From: a virus
Lineage: Duplodnaviria > Heunggongvirae > Uroviricota > Caudoviricetes
Direction: 5' to 3' (one strand)
Length of the DNA stretch: 38,396 bases
Virus record (IMG/VR): IMGVR_UViG_2675903536_000019
In this document: positions 27,001 to 36,000 of the stretch, piece after piece
Layout: every line of letters begins with the position of its first letter
Numbering within the stretch: the first letter of the stretch is position 1
Position numbers: made by a program

Positions 27001-30000
27001 GCCAGTCGGTACGACTGACCTTCGATTCATGGCAGCCAATCATCTTCGCCAGTCCCCTTTGCGTCAGAACTGACAGGTTGATAAGTAAATCCGTTTCAGC
27101 GCGATCGATATCGCGCTGCGACAGTTTGCTGTAACTTGTTTGTGACATTTGTTAATTTTCCTATATTGATATGGGGTTAAGCGGCAATCCCAATGGGTTT
27201 GCCACTGATGTTTGCTCACCCTGTTAGAGGTGAACGACCAGCAATGTTAAAGAGCGGTGTTACTTATTCAGCCTGGTTCGGATGAGGAAACAGGTGCGGT
27301 AAGTCCGGGCGAATTTCGTAAGCCTTAACCTGACCATTGGTGGCATTAACGATAGCGAAAACTTTTTCAGGAGAAACTTTTCCGCCTCGCAACCATTTAT
27401 GAACAGCGGGCTGTGATACGCCGCAATCAGCTGCAAGTCGTTTTTGACTGCCAACAATATTCAAGGCTCGCTGAATCACTAAATTCATGAGCATACCTCT
27501 ACAGCAAATAAAGCATAACCAAAAATAACATGGGTTATACAACAGAGCAATAACAATTGTTGTTTTACTTTTGATAACCGTGGTTATAGATTACAGGTAT
27601 GAAAACATTCGCAGAAAGACTAAATGCCGCCATGAGTTCAGCCGGGTTGTCACAAGCACAACTTGCAGACATGGTGGGGGTATCACAACCAGCCATACAA
27701 AAGATGTCATCTGGTAAAACAACCGGATCACGTAAAATGGTCGAATTAGCCAACGCGTTAAGAGTTCGCCCTGAGTGGCTAAGCTCTGGTATAGGGTCAA
27801 TGAGACCACAGAGCGCAGAAGAGCCATCTAATGCTCGGGAATCATCTTTAAAAGCTATCGCTTGGGATGATCATCAAAATGATAATGACGAATTTGTTGC
27901 GCTCCCCCTTCTAAATATTTCACTTTCAGCTGGCGGAGGAAGTTGTGCATTGGAGGAGTCCGCAGAATTCTCTCTAGTTTTTAGGCGCTATTACCTGAAA
28001 AAAATGGGAGTTCCAGAAAAAGCGGCAAAGTTGGTCAGGGTTGTTGGGCAAAGTATGGAGCCAACACTCCATGATGGTGATGTGGTGGGGGTAAACACGC
28101 AAGATACGAGCATCAGGGATGGTAAAACATATGCAATTTGCCAAGCTGATTTGTTAAGGGTAAAAACGCTAATAGCCACACCAACATCGGTAATTATCAG
28201 ATCGATAAACCGCGAAGAGTATCCTGATGAAGTAATGAACAGAGAAGAATTCTACAAAAACGTAAAAATCATAGGACGAGTGTTCTGGTCATCACATAGC
28301 TGGTAATCAGACTCCAACTGAACTTTTGCTATAAGAACACTCACGAAGAACGGCCTTTTATTGTGCTCAATACCACCGATGGTAAACCATTCGCCAAGTA
28401 GCCAATTCATAAAATGCCATTTCTAAATCCCCCGGCTCCAGTGCCGGGTTTTATTTACTTAATTACACAGTCGCATATCCTGAAGTAACACATCTATAGC
28501 TAACTTCACAGCGAGATCATCCAATTCATCATGGTGAAGCACTCGGATCATTCCCGCAATAGCATCTGCTGAAATAGCTTCCCCAGTAGCAATAACCTCA
28601 AGCAACGACACCCCTAGAATTTCGACTACCCGCTGGTGCAACACACCAAATTCCCCTTCGATTAACATGCAATCACCCATAACAATCAGCCTTTCCCCCT
28701 TGAAAATATCACGCGGATACCACAAAAAATAAAATATTTTTGTTATCAACCATTTATAACGCTTTCCATAAAATGATAAATATAGTTATTGCACAATCAG
28801 ATAACTTAGGTTATCTTCAATTCAACAGCAGGACGCTGGAAGCCAAACGGAACAGATTGGCAGGCTCTTTAACATTGATGGACTCTCAACCTAACCGTTG
28901 AGACCAAAATCTAAGTGGTTTTGGGGATGACGCGAATTTCAGTTGCAAGGCCGCGATCGAGAAGAAAAACACCTCGACGCGTCATACACCAAAGCCACTT
29001 AAAGGAGACCATCATGGTAACCATAATCTGGAAAGAATCCAAAGGTACGGCAAAAAGCCGCTATAAAGCTCGCAGGGAAGAACTTATTGCAGAGCGGCGC
29101 AGTAGTGAAAGACTGACGCGGAAGATTGCGCTAAAGATCTCTGGTTGCGTCAGAGCAGACAAAGCAGCATCACTCGGCAGCCTTCGCAACAAGAAGGCAG
29201 AAGAAGTCGAGCGCAAAAACAGAAGTACTTATTACAAGGATTCAAACCCATTAGGAAACAAAATACATGCAGTTCAAAAAATAAAATTGTACAGTAAACC
29301 ACCGTATGGACTTATTGAGTATGCTTATGGTGAAAAAGACTATTTATGTTAATCCTAATCGCGGACAAAACAGAAAAGTATCTGATAGAAGCCTTACATC
29401 TCGAGACAGAAGGAGGATAGCGAGATGGGAAAAGAGAATAGCATATGCATTAGAAAACGGTATAACACCTGGATTTAATGCTATAGATGACGGTCCGGAA
29501 TATAAGATTAATGAAGACCCAATGGACAAAGTTGACAAAGCATTAGCAACACCATTTCCTCGAGATGTTGAAAAAATTAAAGATGAAAAATATGAGGATA
29601 TAATGCACAGAGTTGTTAACCACGCTCACCAACGAAATCCAAATAAAAAATGGTCATAACCCACTTCGGTAGATTTTATTGTTTGGACTAACAAAATTTA
29701 CTACCGCAAGCCACGCAGTGAAACGGGTGTGACTTGTGTTGGTCGCCAGAAAATAAAATTAGGCAGCAAACCACTTATTTGAAGTGAGATATGGAAGAAG
29801 AATTTGAAGAGTTCGAAGAGCATCCACAGGATGTGATGGAACAATACCAGGACTATCCGGATGACTACGACTATTGATACAAATCAATGGTGTGGGCAAT
29901 ACGAACTACGGCCATGATTGCCAGAGAACTTAGCAAACAGAAAAACAAGGCTGCCTGATGGTGGCCTTTATTTTTGGCATAAACAAATCAGTAAAAAAAA

Positions 30001-33000: not shown

Positions 33001-36000
33001 GACGGAACTATTCCGGATGATGTGGAGAAAAGCGAATCCCCGGACAGCGACGATGACTGTTCTGAGTGTGAAATTCCCGTCGCCACTCTGAGCCTTACTC
33101 ATCGCTTCCTTCACCTCTTCTTATTCAGCAAAGATGAAGATGGAAAATACCGGCATCATGCCACACCAGAACAACGCAATAACGTGATCCGTATGGAGAT
33201 GGACACAGAGGACAGTTACCTTCAGAGCCTGCTTACTGCTGTGCGCGCCGCGCATCATGAACTGGATAAACTGACGAACCATCACCTTAGTCGCCTAGCT
33301 GAATCTGTAGGGAAAGCATTCCCCCACTCTGCAAATCATCGCATCAGCCCGGCTGAATTCGACAAGTTCATCTCCACCTGGATGAAAACAGACTATGTGG
33401 ATCAGGGATTGCTGGCAAAAGAATGGCAGAAAGGAAATTATGTTACAGGCATCACTCGTACGCCTTCCGGTGCTAACGCTGGCGGCGGAAATCTTACCGA
33501 TCGTGGCGAAGGCTTTACCCACAATCAGGCATCACTGGCGCGAGACATTGCCACTGGCGTTCTGGCCCGTTCAATAGATGTGGATATTTATAACCTGCAC
33601 CCAGCACACGCAAAACACGTTGAAGAAATCGTGTCAGAGAATAAGCCGCCCTTTTCTGTTTTCCGTGACAAATTCATCGCCATGCCCGGTGGGCTGGATT
33701 ATTCCCGCGCCATTGTGGTGGCTTCAGTGAAAGAAGCACCAATCGGCATTGAGGCTATCCCGGCGCGCGTGACTGAATATCTCAACAAAGTGTTGACCGA
33801 AACCGATCACTCTAACCCGGATCCGGAAATCGTGGAAATCGCCTGCGGTCGCTCATCAGCCCCAATGCCGCAGCGCGGAACAGCAGAAGAGATACATGAC
33901 GATGAAGAAAAGCAGCAAACATCGGACGCAATGTCTAATGAACAGGCAGCGCCTGAATCAGTGGAAGAAATTCCAGTTAAACATAATGCGGACACGCAAT
34001 CACTGGAAAATGTCTCATCTGTAGAAACGAAATACCAGGAACTGAGAGCAGAACTCCATGAAGCCAGGAAAAACATTTCGCCCAAAAATCCTGTCGATGC
34101 AGACAAATTGCTGGCTGCCTCTCGTGGGGAGTTCGTTGAAGGCATCAGCGCCCCAACCGACCCGAAGTGGATTAAGGGGATCCAGGCTCGCGACACTGAG
34201 GACCAGAATCAGTCCAAAGTGGAACAAATTGCCCCAGAAGCGGGACAAAACAGCCCGGATACGCAACAAAACGGGCCAGAAGAGCAACAGCCAGCCCCAG
34301 TAGCGCAACCGGAGCTGGAAAAAAACTGCCGCGTCTGTGGTCAGACTGGCGGGGGTAACTGCCCTGACTGTAGTGCGGTAATGGGCGATAGCACTTACAC
34401 AGAAACTTTTGGAGAAAATGACGCCGCTGATGGAGAAGACTCAGCACAAACTGAGGAGAAGATCATTCAGGAAAACTCTGTTGATGCCGCTCAGGAGGGC
34501 GAAACCGTTGTTCAGAACGAGCCAGGCAGTGATACGTCCGGCGATGACGCCAATTCTGAGCCAGTAACTCTCGACTGGAAAAGACAGCTCGTGATTGCCG
34601 CCGTCTATGGTTTGTGCGCCAACCCCGCATGTATAGCCACAGCGCCAGCAATCCCTGATATCGCCATCATGATTGCCAACAGGCTTGAAAATTTCGGAGG
34701 TGAGAAATCATGAATGCCTGGCTTATCCCCGATCGCATTGAAGAGCAGTCATGGGCACGACACTACCAGCAAATTGCCCGTGAAGAAACTGAAGCTGAGC
34801 TGGCAGACGACCTGGAAAAAGGTCTGCCCCAACACCTGTTTGAATCGCTATGCATCGATAATCTGCAACGTCACGGGGCCAGCAAAAAAGCTATTTCCCG
34901 TGCATTTGATGACGATGTCGATTTTCAGGAACGCATGGCAGAACACATCCGCTACATGGCTGAAACCATCGCCCGTCACCAAATTAATATTGATTCAGAG
35001 GTATAAAACGGATGAGTACAGCACTCGCAACGCTGGCAGGGAAGCTGGCTGAACGTGTCGGCATGGATTCTGTCGACCCACAGGAACTAATCACCACTCT
35101 TCGCCAGACGGCATTTAAAGGTGATGCCAGCGATGCGCAATTTATCGCATTGTTGATCGTCGCCAACCAGTACGGCCTTAATCCCTGGACGAAAGAAATT
35201 TACGCCTTCCCTGACAAGCAGAACGGCATCGTTCCGGTGGTTGGCGTTGATGGCTGGTCCCGCATTATCAATGAAAACCAGCAGTTTGATGGCATGGACT
35301 TTGAGCAGGACAATGAGTCCTGTACATGCCGGATTTACCGCAAAGATCGCAATCACCCGATCTGCGTTACCGAGTGGATGGATGAATGTCGCCGCGCACC
35401 ATTCAAAACCCGCGAAGGCAGAGAAATCACCGGACCGTGGCAGTCGCATCCCAAACGGATGTTACGGCACAAAGCCATGATTCAGTGTGCTCGCCTGGCC
35501 TTCGGATTTGCTGGCATCTATGACAAGGATGAAGCCGAGCGTATTGTCGAAAATACCGCATATACTACAGAACGTCAGCCGGAACGCGACATCACCCCGG
35601 TTAACGAAGAAACCATGTCGGAAATTAACGCCCTTCTTACTTCCATGGAAAAAACGTGGGATGACGACCTGTTGCCGCTCTGTTCCCAGATTTTTCGCCG
35701 CAACATTCGAGCGTCGTCAGAACTGTCCCAAGCCGAAGCAGAGAAGGCTCTTGGATTCCTTAAACAGAAAGCCACAGAGCATAAGGTGGCAGCATGACAC
35801 CAGAAATTATCCTACAACGTACCGGGATCGACGTGAGAGGTGTCGAGCAGGGAGATTATGCATGGCAAAAATTACGGCTCGGGGTCATCACAGCTTCAGA
35901 AGTTCACAACGTGATAGCAAAACCCCGCTCCGGAAAGAAATGGCCTGACATGAAAATGTCCTACTTCCACACTCTGCTGGCTGAGGTCTGCACGGGTGTG

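What the first reader, a model, noticed from the sequence alone, without database searches (positions are those of the whole stretch)
29324..34713. Early-left operon between N and gam is filled with uncharacterised genes, including a 690-aa acidic protein
The N-to-gam interval is where lambdoid phages keep host-takeover, anti-restriction and exclusion functions (ral, sieB, kil, cIII in lambda). Here it holds at least six plus-strand ORFs with no family I can recognise. The largest (32641..34713) is strongly acidic with a CxxC...CxxC cluster and a C-terminal hydrophobic tail, and its stop overlaps the gam start, so it is co-expressed with the anti-RecBCD/recombination genes. These features are compatible with an anti-defence or DNA-mimic role, which is speculation from composition and position.
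Basis: partly seen in the sequence, partly recalled or inferred. Interest (0 to 1): 0.65.

Follow-up and report, generated by a model that had tools for sequence, protein, structure and literature searches.

The report
RecE-like phage protein without its nuclease
The "unknown 690-aa acidic protein" is the non-catalytic N-terminal two-thirds of the prophage recombination enzyme RecE, with the nuclease replaced by a short conserved hydrophobic tail; it offers a natural way to study a part of RecE whose role is unknown, and most of the other genes in the interval belong to known families.

Summary
The claim that no family can be recognised is not.

The window is an Stx1c-converting lambdoid prophage. 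Its N-to-gam interval is a mosaic:
- a near-orthologue of HK022 Nun (93.6% identity)
- a remnant of lambda ral
- three conserved genes of unknown function on the + strand, and one on the - strand
- Rac-type kilR (5'-truncated) and ydaE
- the 690-aa ORF

The 690-aa ORF matches RecE (exonuclease VIII) only over positions 1-598 of the 877-position NCBIfam model. It is 59% identical to Rac-SA53 RecE residues 43-579. The PD-(D/E)XK nuclease domain is absent, and so is recT. After the linker comes a 47-aa hydrophobic tail whose stop overlaps the gam start.

The same architecture occurs in about 79 of 5,426 complete E. coli genomes and in four phage isolates. It is under purifying selection: dN/dS is 0.25-0.30 overall and 0.07-0.10 in the tail.

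The same N-terminal region is joined, at the same junction, to a PD-(D/E)XK exonuclease in RecE and to a DnaQ-like 3'-5' exonuclease in other prophages.

The function is unknown. My best guess is a non-catalytic accessory of phage DNA-end and recombination metabolism. A 2025 paper already mentions nuclease-less "RecE-2" proteins of unknown role. I rate this a new variant of a known kind, of moderate interest.

The parts
28863..28903 (+). Putative nutL: boxA-like GCTCTTTAACA, then a boxB-like hairpin TCTCAACCTAACCGTTGAGA, upstream of N
   Evidence: Sequence read. The assignment to the phi21 type rests on my recollection of the phi21 nut sites and on N being 76% identical to imm21 N.
29014..29352 (+). 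N antiterminator (112 aa, phi21-like); bounds the interval on the left
   Evidence: phrog_271 E 5e-31; exact match to the annotated CDS in relative L011; tblastn 97% to Stx1a-phage N and 76% to imm21 N.
29321..29659 (+). nun: orthologue of HK022 Nun (112 aa), overlapping the end of N by 32 nt
   Evidence: phrog_5632 E 2e-69; 93.6% identity over 110 aa to HK022 Nun.
29887..29958 (+). 23-codon C-terminal remnant of ral (MVWAIRTTAMIARELSKQKNKAA)
   Evidence: Annotated 'antirestriction Ral family protein' in L011; identical DNA in the window.
29947..29968 (+). Terminator-like hairpin (9 bp stem plus T run) after nun and the ral remnant
   Evidence: Consensus scan; not evidence of function.
30013..30726 (+). 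237-aa protein of unknown function, with a central CxxC..CxxC zinc-ribbon-like segment and a C-terminal coiled-coil-like segment
   Evidence: phrog_2539 E 1e-130. Weaker hits of residues ~100-163 to Lar-like, endonuclease VII and HNH zinc-finger PHROGs. No significant BLASTP match to Rac RalR. No PDB hit.
30758..31117 (+). 119-aa protein of unknown function
   Evidence: phrog_2982 E 9e-77; annotated as hypothetical in relatives.
31086..31295 (-). 69-aa conserved minus-strand ORF of unknown function
   Evidence: phrog_2605 E 5e-45; annotated CDS in L004 and L011.
31537..31572 (+). Strong terminator-like hairpin (14 bp stem, 7 GC, then CTTTTTT) upstream of kilR
   Evidence: I infer that it is a tL-type terminator read through under N antitermination.
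31720..31896 (+). kilR (FtsZ inhibitor of Rac type), 58 aa with a GTG start; the first ~15 codons of the canonical 73-aa gene are replaced
   Evidence: NF008465 119.5 bits against a cut-off of 92, model positions 16-73; DNA alignment with relatives shows the 5' junction.
31890..32066 (+). ydaE (Rac-type small zinc-binding protein, Rtr1/RPAP2-like)
   Evidence: NF041288 89.6 bits against a cut-off of 35; PF04181 E 5.5e-8.
32147..32533 (+). 128-aa protein of unknown function, at the position racC occupies in Rac but not homologous to RacC
   Evidence: phrog_2016 E 9e-72; no BLASTP alignment to RacC.
32641..34713 (+). recE-prime: nuclease-less RecE-family protein, 690 aa
   Evidence: PF06630; phrog_607 positions 1-617 of 883; NF007259 positions 1-598 of 877, 730.6 bits against a cut-off of 1269; 59% identity to Rac-SA53 RecE residues 43-579; dN/dS 0.25-0.30.
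33076..33870 (+). Most conserved core of the RecE N-terminal region (aa 146-410), including the glycine-rich loop [21 protein letters not shown]
   Evidence: Invariant columns shared with Rac RecE, the DnaQ fusion and Klebsiella RecE; dN/dS 0.14-0.19; AF2 helical domain 144-270 with pLDDT about 70-83.
34327..34371 (+). CxxC-x7-CxxC zinc-ribbon-like motif (aa 563-577)
   Evidence: Shared with Rac-type RecE; absent from Klebsiella RecE.
34411..34569 (+). Acidic, poorly conserved linker (aa 591-643)
   Evidence: The 50-residue windows 551-600 and 601-650, which overlap this linker, have net charges of -8 and -9; dN/dS 0.65.
34570..34710 (+). Conserved 47-aa hydrophobic C-terminal tail ([47 protein letters not shown]) in place of the nuclease domain
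   Evidence: Conserved across the family. dN/dS 0.07-0.10 with dS 0.39. Only 7 representatives among 1.84 billion carry it. Invariant core IAA..GLCANPA also in a distant Buttiauxella-type protein.
34710..35006 (+). gam (98 aa, GamS-length); the start overlaps the recE-prime stop
   Evidence: PF06064 E 5e-65; ATGA overlap.
35012..35797 (+). bet (Red-beta annealase)
   Evidence: ORF; annotated bet in relatives; PF03837 in L007.
35794..36474 (+). exo (lambda exonuclease); the only recombination exonuclease found in the window by the searches
   Evidence: ORF; annotated in relatives. tblastn finds no homologue of the Rac-SA53 RecE nuclease region, of Rac RecT or of the L003 DnaQ-like exonuclease in the window.

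Best explanation
ORF 32641-34713 is a RecE-family gene that keeps the roughly 600-aa non-catalytic N-terminal region of exonuclease VIII. It has no nuclease domain and no recT partner. At the domain boundary, a conserved 47-aa hydrophobic tail replaces the nuclease, and the gene is translationally coupled to lambda-type gam-bet-exo. It therefore cannot be an exonuclease, and the database name 'exodeoxyribonuclease VIII' is a mis-transfer.

Shown here: family membership of the N-terminal region, absence of the nuclease, conservation of the architecture, and purifying selection.

Inferred: the RecE N-terminal region is an autonomous module that phages combine with different DNA-end-processing enzymes. 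It occurs in cis with a PD-(D/E)XK 5'-3' exonuclease or a DnaQ-like 3'-5' exonuclease; here it sits next to Gam, Bet and Exo.

My proposed mechanism is that the module acts as a non-catalytic scaffold or end-tethering accessory of recombination and DNA-end metabolism during N-dependent early-left expression. In this view the hydrophobic tail supplies the oligomerisation or partner-binding that the nuclease toroid supplies in RecE.

Confidence by step: identity and loss of the nuclease about 0.95; a functional, selected gene about 0.85; the accessory/scaffold mechanism about 0.35-0.4.
For: Family and truncation:
- PF06630 E 2.3e-12.
- phrog_607 E 1e-254, covering profile positions 1-617 of 883.
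- NF007259 covering positions 1-598 of 877.
- 59% identity to Rac-SA53 RecE residues 43-579, and nothing beyond.
- No RecE-nuclease, RecT or DnaQ-exonuclease homologue anywhere in the window.

Modularity: the same N-terminal region, with the junction at the same linker position, precedes PF12684 (PDDEXK) in Rac-SA53 RecE and PF16473 (a DnaQ-like 3'-5' exonuclease) in an 847-aa E. coli prophage protein.

Selection and spread:
- The top 120 database relatives are mostly 680-700 aa at 76-100% identity; the shorter ones (581-663 aa) are mostly labelled partial.
- 79 of 5,426 complete E. coli genomes carry it.
- Phages phiSTEC1589-Stx1c, PhiR5_2, POCJ13 and 75/02 Stx have the same layout.
- dN/dS is 0.25-0.30 overall and 0.07-0.10 in the tail, where dS is 0.39. 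The constraint is therefore on the protein, not on the DNA.

Context:
- All 66 IMG/VR loci with this tail have gam overlapping its end.
- Most of them continue with bet-exo; six continue instead with an AAA_24 (Sak4-like) protein.

Literature:
- The RecE N-terminal domain has unknown function, but full-length RecE improves linear-linear recombination (PMC11611040, PMC11610958, both citing Fu et al. 2012).
- Nuclease-less 'RecE-2' proteins of unknown role are noted in lambdoid early-left operons (PMC12315714).
Against: No biochemical function can be read from the sequence:
- AF2 models are poor: mean pLDDT 32 and 40, with only residues 144-270 above about 70.
- Foldseek against the PDB and BFVD, and sequence searches of the PDB, find nothing.

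The recombination link is not universal:
- Six loci have Gam plus a Sak4-like protein and no phage exonuclease.
- A distant tail-bearing relative (L079/L080, phrog_26058) has no gam and no recombinase next to it.
- The DnaQ fusion in L003 is followed directly by xis-int, without an annealase.

The 66 loci are largely near-identical prophages, so they are not independent observations.

The tail dN/dS rests on 10 synonymous against 3-4 non-synonymous differences.

About 6-9 of the 66 loci carry a disrupted or shortened copy, so the gene is dispensable in at least some prophages.
Confidence: 0.5

Rival explanations
1. It is an anti-defence or host-takeover effector that works with Gam. For example, it could shield DNA ends or neutralise a host nuclease or sensor other than RecBCD, through its acidic disordered segments or its tail. 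On this view the fusion to nucleases in RecE is secondary.
For: - It sits in the N-dependent early-left operon among exclusion and takeover genes (nun, ral remnant, kilR).
- It is strongly acidic.
- Within the E. coli/Shigella clade the tail is always adjacent to, and translationally coupled with, the anti-RecBCD gene gam, even where bet and exo are replaced.
- A distant tail-bearing relative occurs without any recombination genes.
Against: - There is no similarity to any known anti-defence or DNA-mimic protein.
- The acidic residues lie mainly in poorly conserved, probably disordered linkers (dN/dS 0.65), which genuine RecE also has.
- The linkage to gam is explained trivially by physical overlap.
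- The distant relative lacks gam.
Confidence: 0.2
2. It is a non-functional leftover. A module exchange replaced the recE nuclease domain and recT with gam-bet-exo, leaving a truncated recE that is merely carried along.
For: - The region is an obvious mosaic, with junctions at ral, kilR and the recE linker.
- PGAP names it by transfer from RecE.
- Some loci carry broken copies.
Against: - The ORF length is conserved across relatives down to 76% identity.
- dN/dS is 0.25-0.30 overall and 0.07-0.10 in the tail, with normal dS.
- The tail motif is also conserved in a very distant protein (51% identity over 37 aa) whose N-terminal region has diverged beyond BLASTP detection.
Confidence: 0.07
3. 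It is a tail-anchored or membrane-associated protein. The C-terminal hydrophobic segment inserts into the inner membrane and localises the large acidic N-terminal region there, for example for exclusion or for anchoring DNA ends.
For: - The best 19-residue Kyte-Doolittle window averages 1.75.
- Mean Eisenberg hydrophobicity is about 0.6 with a low hydrophobic moment over residues 649-680.
- The hydrophobic character is conserved.
Against: - The segment contains four prolines, plus Asn and Asp.
- AF2 models it, at low confidence, as three short helices rather than one span of 20 or more residues.
- No signal or other membrane feature is present.
- RecE-family proteins are soluble DNA enzymes, to my knowledge.
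Confidence: 0.08

Closest known systems
RecE (exodeoxyribonuclease VIII) of the Rac prophage and its relatives (Gifsy-1/2, HK225, Klebsiella prophages)
   Same: - The N-terminal ~600 aa are homologous: 59% identity to Rac-SA53 RecE; the PF06630 domain; the conserved core with the glycine-rich loop; the CxxC..CxxC motif; the acidic linkers.
- The upstream neighbours kilR and ydaE are the same.
- The position is the same: the last large gene of the early-left operon.
   Different: - It lacks the C-terminal PD-(D/E)XK nuclease/toroid domain (PF12684).
- It scores 730.6 bits against the equivalog cut-off of 1269.
- It has no recT.
- It ends in a 47-aa hydrophobic tail that RecE lacks.
- It is followed by gam-bet-exo.
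'RecE-2' nuclease-less RecE relatives in lambdoid early-left operons (PMC12315714), and PHROG family phrog_26058 (unknown function)
   Same: - It is RecE-related, lacks a nuclease domain, lies in the early-left operon, and has no known role.
- The window protein hits phrog_26058 (E 1.5e-29 over residues 147-425), and its tail hits the C-terminal end of that profile (E 0.008).
   Different: - The paper calls RecE-2 'distantly related' to Rac RecE, whereas this protein is 59% identical to a Rac-type RecE.
- I could not check whether the paper's set includes this family, because its supplements are not held.
- The phrog_26058 member examined (L079) has no gam next to it.
RecE-N::DnaQ-like '3'-5' exonuclease' fusion proteins of E. 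coli prophages (e.g. WP_137535577, 847 aa)
   Same: It has the same N-terminal region (66% identity in the four-way alignment) and the same junction after the acidic linker.
   Different: Those proteins carry a PF16473 (Rv2179c-like) exonuclease where this one has the tail. They are followed directly by xis-int rather than by gam-bet-exo.
Lambda early-left region (N-ral-sieB-...-cIII-kil-gam-bet-exo)
   Same: It is an N-antiterminated operon ending in gam-bet-exo. A ral remnant is present, and a cell-division inhibitor gene lies upstream of the recombination genes.
   Different: None of the conserved ORFs in the interval matched a sieB, cIII or lambda kil family, though I ran no targeted search for these small genes. 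The interval holds HK022-type nun, Rac-type kilR and ydaE, three genes of unknown function and recE-prime instead.

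Membership tests
RecE / exodeoxyribonuclease VIII (NCBIfam NF007259 equivalog) | N-terminal Exonuc_VIII region (Pfam PF06630) | tested here: met
   PF06630 E 2.3e-12, 47.7 bits against a cut-off of 25, residues 55-197; 59% identity to Rac-SA53 RecE residues 43-579.
RecE / exodeoxyribonuclease VIII (NCBIfam NF007259 equivalog) | Whole-protein score above the curated equivalog cut-off | tested here: not met
   730.6 bits against a cut-off of 1269; only model positions 1-598 of 877 are matched.
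RecE / exodeoxyribonuclease VIII (NCBIfam NF007259 equivalog) | C-terminal PD-(D/E)XK (RecB-family) exonuclease domain that forms the toroidal tetramer | tested here: not met
   No PF12684 hit, although Rac-SA53 RecE gives one. The alignment ends at the linker. No PDB sequence match, including to the solved RecE nuclease domain. tblastn of the nuclease domain finds nothing in the window.
RecE / exodeoxyribonuclease VIII (NCBIfam NF007259 equivalog) | Adjacent recT annealase partner | tested here: not met
   No RecT homologue in the window. The downstream genes are gam, bet and exo.
RecE / exodeoxyribonuclease VIII (NCBIfam NF007259 equivalog) | 5'-3' dsDNA exonuclease activity | not testable with these tools
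   Needs biochemistry. Absence is expected because the catalytic domain is missing.
Nuclease-less RecE-like proteins ('RecE-2', phrog_26058) | Homology to the RecE N-terminal region without any nuclease domain | tested here: met
Nuclease-less RecE-like proteins ('RecE-2', phrog_26058) | Match to the phrog_26058 profile, including its C-terminal tail segment | tested here: inconclusive
   E 1.5e-29, but only for residues 147-425. The tail alone gives E 0.008 to profile positions 586-620. The best PHROG for the whole protein is phrog_607.
Nuclease-less RecE-like proteins ('RecE-2', phrog_26058) | Identity with the proteins called RecE-2 in PMC12315714 | not testable with these tools
   The paper's supplementary tables are not held.
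   The acidic residues are concentrated in segments that AF2 leaves unstructured, and one of them (the linker, aa 591-643) evolves fast, with dN/dS 0.65. The models are too poor to exclude an ordered acidic surface. No sequence or fold match to any solved structure.
   Needs experiments.
Tail-anchored membrane proteins | A single C-terminal hydrophobic span of about 20 residues, able to cross the membrane | tested here: inconclusive
   Kyte-Doolittle 19-residue maximum of 1.75, and Eisenberg mean about 0.6 with a low moment. Against this, there are four prolines and three short predicted helices.
HK022 Nun transcription-termination/exclusion factor (for ORF 29321-29659) | Sequence orthology over the full length, including the arginine-rich motif and the C-terminal ...NPNKKWS end | tested here: met
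   93.6% identity over 110 aa to HK022 Nun; phrog_5632 E 2e-69; both motifs are visible in the translation.
KilR FtsZ inhibitor (NF008465) (for ORF 31720-31896) | Score above the curated cut-off, and full length | tested here: inconclusive
   119.5 bits against a cut-off of 92. Only model positions 16-73 are present: the first ~15 codons and the native start are replaced.

The most novel reading that the evidence does not exclude
The ~600-aa RecE N-terminal region together with the conserved IAA..GLCANPA hydrophobic tail may be an autonomous early-left effector in its own right. It could be a Gam-partnered protector of phage DNA ends, or a counter-defence factor. On this reading, the nucleases fused to it in RecE and in the DnaQ-type proteins are interchangeable add-ons. 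The nuclease-less form would then reveal the real, still unknown, primary function of a domain carried by thousands of enterobacterial prophages and used daily, as full-length RecE, in recombineering.
Probability: 0.2. Interest if true: 0.65.

Novelty: new variant of a known kind. Interest (0 to 1): 0.38.

Why it matters
The N-terminal two-thirds of RecE has had no assigned function for decades. Two 2023 reviews still call it unknown (PMC11611040, PMC11610958), even though full-length RecE is the basis of linear-linear direct-cloning methods.

This protein is a natural version of that region without the nuclease. It is under purifying selection. It is also present in phage PhiR5_2, whose database record lists E. 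coli K-12 MG1655 as host. That makes it a ready separation-of-function allele: deletion, trans-complementation and interaction studies can ask directly what the N-terminal region does.

There are two practical points:
- These proteins are annotated genome-wide as 'exodeoxyribonuclease VIII' although they cannot be exonucleases.
- The prophage is Stx1c-converting, so its early-left functions bear on induction and spread of a toxin phage.

Tried and rejected
- **Structure prediction.** Two AF2 runs gave mean pLDDT 31.9 (12 E. coli-type sequences) and 40.4 (with a Klebsiella clade added). Only residues 144-270 are moderately confident.
- **Fold search.** Foldseek against the PDB and BFVD found nothing with E below 0.05. 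The afdb50 library was unavailable.
- **PDB sequence and profile searches.** No hits.
- **More diversity for the alignment.** A second large homology search, seeded with Klebsiella RecE, returned only sequences 91-98% identical to the query, so it added little.
- **Low-threshold Pfam scans of sub-regions.** Nothing.
- **PADLOC.** Nothing for any ORF in the interval.
- **Origin of the tail.** tblastn and blastn against the phage collection found only the same six records (four phages). The library of 1.84 billion representatives held only seven carriers, all RecE-N-like proteins or fragments. A genome-contig scan added only Buttiauxella and hits in cyanobacterial MAGs that I take to be chance.
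- **Apparent tail match to Klebsiella RecE.** The 'invariant' tail columns shared with Klebsiella RecE in alignment A3 are a MAFFT artefact: scattered residues aligned to the start of the nuclease domain.
- **'The tail docks onto lambda Exo or Bet.'** Weakened, because six loci pair the tail and gam with a Sak4-like AAA_24 protein and no exonuclease.
- **'The tail is functionally tied to Gam.'** Weakened, because a distant tail-bearing relative has no gam.
- **128-aa ORF as RacC.** No similarity.
- **237-aa ORF as Lar/RalR.** BLASTP E 0.68. Only the generic zinc-ribbon spacing is shared.
- **Fu et al. 2012.** The paper could not be read; it is not held.

Full report
**Check of the observation**

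The window is a lambdoid prophage with its early-left operon on the + strand. From left to right it carries a repressor-like gene, N, the interval in question, then gam, bet, exo and int.

The large ORF is at the stated coordinates, 32641-34713. It encodes 690 aa with pI 4.58 and 124 D+E against 65 K+R. It has CxxC motifs at residues 140, 563 and 574, and a hydrophobic C-terminus: the best 19-residue Kyte-Doolittle window averages 1.75, at residues 650-668. Its TGA stop overlaps the gam ATG.

The interval holds seven conserved + strand ORFs, one conserved - strand ORF and one gene remnant. Each ORF matches a PHROG family, so they are real genes.

The descriptive part of the finding is therefore correct. 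The claim that no family can be recognised is not.

**What the smaller genes are**

- **29321-29659** is an orthologue of the HK022 exclusion factor Nun: phrog_5632 E 2e-69, and 93.6% identity over 110 aa to HK022 Nun. It overlaps the end of a phi21-like N gene at 29014-29352.
- **29887-29958** is a 23-codon C-terminal remnant of ral.
- **31720-31896** is Rac-type kilR, at 119.5 bits against a cut-off of 92. Its first ~15 codons and native start have been replaced.
- **31890-32066** is ydaE.
- **30013-30726** (237 aa, phrog_2539, with a zinc-ribbon-like centre), **30758-31117** (119 aa, phrog_2982), **32147-32533** (128 aa, phrog_2016, not RacC) and the minus-strand **31086-31295** (69 aa, phrog_2605) belong only to families of unknown function.
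- None of these proteins matches PADLOC.
- Terminator-like hairpins at 29947-29968 and 31537-31572 suggest that the distal genes are expressed by N-dependent read-through (this is an inference).

**What the 690-aa protein is**

It is a RecE (exonuclease VIII) family protein that lacks the enzyme's catalytic part.

- Pfam finds PF06630, the RecE N-terminal domain (E 2.3e-12), and nothing else.
- PHROG 607 aligns over profile positions 1-617 of 883 (E 1e-254).
- The NCBIfam RecE equivalog aligns over positions 1-598 of 877, at 730.6 bits against a cut-off of 1269.
- BLASTP gives 59% identity to residues 43-579 of Rac-SA53 RecE (1048 aa), and no alignment beyond that.
- Rac-SA53 RecE has the PDDEXK domain PF12684; this protein does not.
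- Neither the RecE nuclease region nor RecT is encoded anywhere else in the window.

The Klebsiella RecE clade lacks the CxxC..CxxC cluster.

**The junction and the tail**

A four-way alignment shows that three architectures diverge at the same point, just after the acidic linker (...SDETGE...):

1. Rac RecE continues into the PD-(D/E)XK nuclease.
2. An 847-aa E. coli prophage protein continues into a DnaQ-like 3'-5' exonuclease (PF16473, E 2e-67).
3. The window protein continues into a 47-aa tail, [47 protein letters not shown].

The tail is the best conserved part of the C-terminal third across the family. Against POCJ13 its dN/dS is 0.07-0.10 while dS is 0.39, so the constraint acts on the protein rather than on the DNA or on gam's ribosome-binding site. 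The preceding acidic linker has dN/dS 0.65, and the whole gene 0.25-0.30. The tail estimate rests on few substitutions: 10 synonymous against 3-4 non-synonymous.

The tail is rare.
- Only seven cluster representatives among 1.84 billion carry it. All are RecE-N-like proteins or short fragments.
- The phage collection shows it only in phiSTEC1589-Stx1c, PhiR5_2, POCJ13 and 75/02 Stx.

**Distribution and context**

- The top 120 relatives in the 5.8-billion-protein collection are mostly 680-700 aa at 76-100% identity. The shorter ones (581-663 aa) are mostly labelled partial.
- 79 of 5,426 complete E. coli genomes hold recE-prime plus gam at 80% coverage or more.
- In 66 IMG/VR loci that carry the tail, gam overlaps its end in all 66. 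Most continue with bet and exo.
- Six of the 66 continue instead with an AAA_24 (Sak4-like) protein and then xis-int, with no phage exonuclease.
- About six to nine of the 66 loci carry a broken or shortened copy.

A second tail subtype ends ...ENFGVTDDEHMPDF and overlaps gam by 23 nt.

A much more distant 545-aa protein occurs in a Buttiauxella-type prophage (L079, L080; phrog_26058).
- It keeps the tail core IAA..GLCANPA, at 51% identity over 37 aa.
- Its N-terminal region is related to RecE only through shared PHROG families.
- It has no gam or recombinase gene beside it.

The combination of N-terminal region and tail is therefore older than the association with gam. The gam linkage in E. 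coli may be no more than physical adjacency.

**Structure**

Two AF2 runs gave poor models, with mean pLDDT 31.9 and 40.4. Only a helical domain at residues 144-270 reached pLDDT of about 70-83. The tail is modelled as three short helices at low confidence. Foldseek against the PDB and BFVD, and sequence or profile searches of the PDB, returned nothing significant. No fold-based function can be proposed.

**Literature**

[quoted passage not shown] Full-length RecE improves linear-linear recombination (PMC11611040, PMC11610958, both citing Fu et al. 2012, which I could not read).
[quoted passage not shown] It also reports DnaQ-like nucleases in such modules (PMC12315714).
- I found no paper on the tail, or on this specific architecture next to gam-bet-exo.

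**Interpretation**

Shown:
- The protein is a RecE-family member without a nuclease, so the database name 'exodeoxyribonuclease VIII' is a mis-transfer.
- It is a conserved gene under purifying selection.
- Its N-terminal region is a module found with three alternative C-terminal ends.

Inferred:
- The module has a function of its own, one that phages couple to DNA-end processing.
- The only experimental hint, the gain in linear-linear recombination with full-length RecE, points to a non-catalytic role in bringing DNA ends or recombination proteins together.
- The hydrophobic tail may provide the self-association or partner-binding that the nuclease toroid provides in RecE.

I put this mechanism at about 0.35-0.4. 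The rivals are:
- an anti-defence or host-takeover role, possibly together with Gam (about 0.2);
- membrane anchoring through the tail (about 0.08);
- a functionless remnant (about 0.07, disfavoured by the selection data).

The remaining probability is unassigned.

**Novelty and score**

The family is known and annotated, and nuclease-less RecE relatives have been noted in print. What appears to be new is:
- the conserved tail;
- the shared junction with two different nucleases;
- the evidence for selection;
- the constant placement in front of gam in E. coli and Shigella Stx-type prophages.

I rate it a new variant of a known kind, with interest of about 0.38. Its main value is as a natural separation-of-function allele for the unexplained RecE N-terminus, and as a correction of a widespread annotation.

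Noticed in passing
window 29014-29659: A phi21-like N gene and an HK022-type nun (93.6% identical to HK022 Nun) sit side by side and overlap by 32 nt. The phage therefore carries both an antiterminator and a terminator/exclusion factor. The same pair occurs in Stx1a phages, PA28, mEpX1 and Kapi1. I presume that Nun targets lambda-type boxB while the phage's own nut site is phi21-type; that is recollection and was not tested.
   Followed up: partly
window 28863-28903: A boxA-like GCTCTTTAACA followed by the hairpin TCTCAACCTAACCGTTGAGA, upstream of N. It looks like a phi21-type nutL.
   Followed up: no
window 29887-29958: A 23-codon remnant of the anti-restriction gene ral (C-terminal third only). 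It is annotated as a 'Ral family protein' in a RefSeq relative. Ral has probably been inactivated by the event that brought in nun.
   Followed up: partly
window 31640-31896: kilR lacks the first ~15 codons and the native ATG and ribosome-binding site of the canonical 73-aa gene. The ORF restarts at a GTG, with a GGAGG 13 nt upstream. Whether this shortened Kil is made or active is unknown.
   Followed up: partly
window 16152-17388 (- strand): Shiga toxin 1 operon: B subunit at 16152-16421 and A subunit at 16432-17388. The closest annotated relatives call it Stx1c, and the relatives' prophage is integrated in ynfG.
   Followed up: partly
L061-L066, L068-L076 (around locus positions 5130-5162); proteins P0118 and P0123-P0125: An alternative tail subtype ends ...ENFGVTDDEHMPDF (variants ...SDERLPDF and ...DDEYMPNF). 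This acidic tip with a terminal Phe recalls the SSB C-terminal DDDIPF peptide. It overlaps the first 23 nt of gam in another frame. It is absent from the window's variant.
   Followed up: no
L003 4001-6544: An 847-aa E. coli prophage protein joins the RecE N-terminal region to a DnaQ-like (PF16473) 3'-5' exonuclease. It is followed directly by xis and int, with no annealase gene.
   Followed up: partly
L058 4862-6264 (also L054-L056, L059, L060): In six IMG/VR prophages, nuclease-less RecE and Gam are followed by an AAA_24 (Sak4-like) protein instead of bet-exo. That is a recombination module with no phage-encoded exonuclease.
   Followed up: partly
L079 2498-4135; L080 2444-4135: A 545-aa acidic protein (phrog_26058) in a Buttiauxella-type prophage shares only the tail motif with the window protein. 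It sits just before DUF1187, xis and int, without gam or a recombinase.
   Followed up: partly
L024, L038, L039, L059, L060, L070: In these IMG/VR loci the ORF that holds the tail is only 95-248 codons long, although RecE-N homology continues upstream. This points to frameshifts or stop codons, so the gene is lost in some prophages.
   Followed up: no
window 1-1000: The first kilobase has an unusually high G+C content (0.62) and strong negative GC and AT skews compared with the rest of the window.
   Followed up: no
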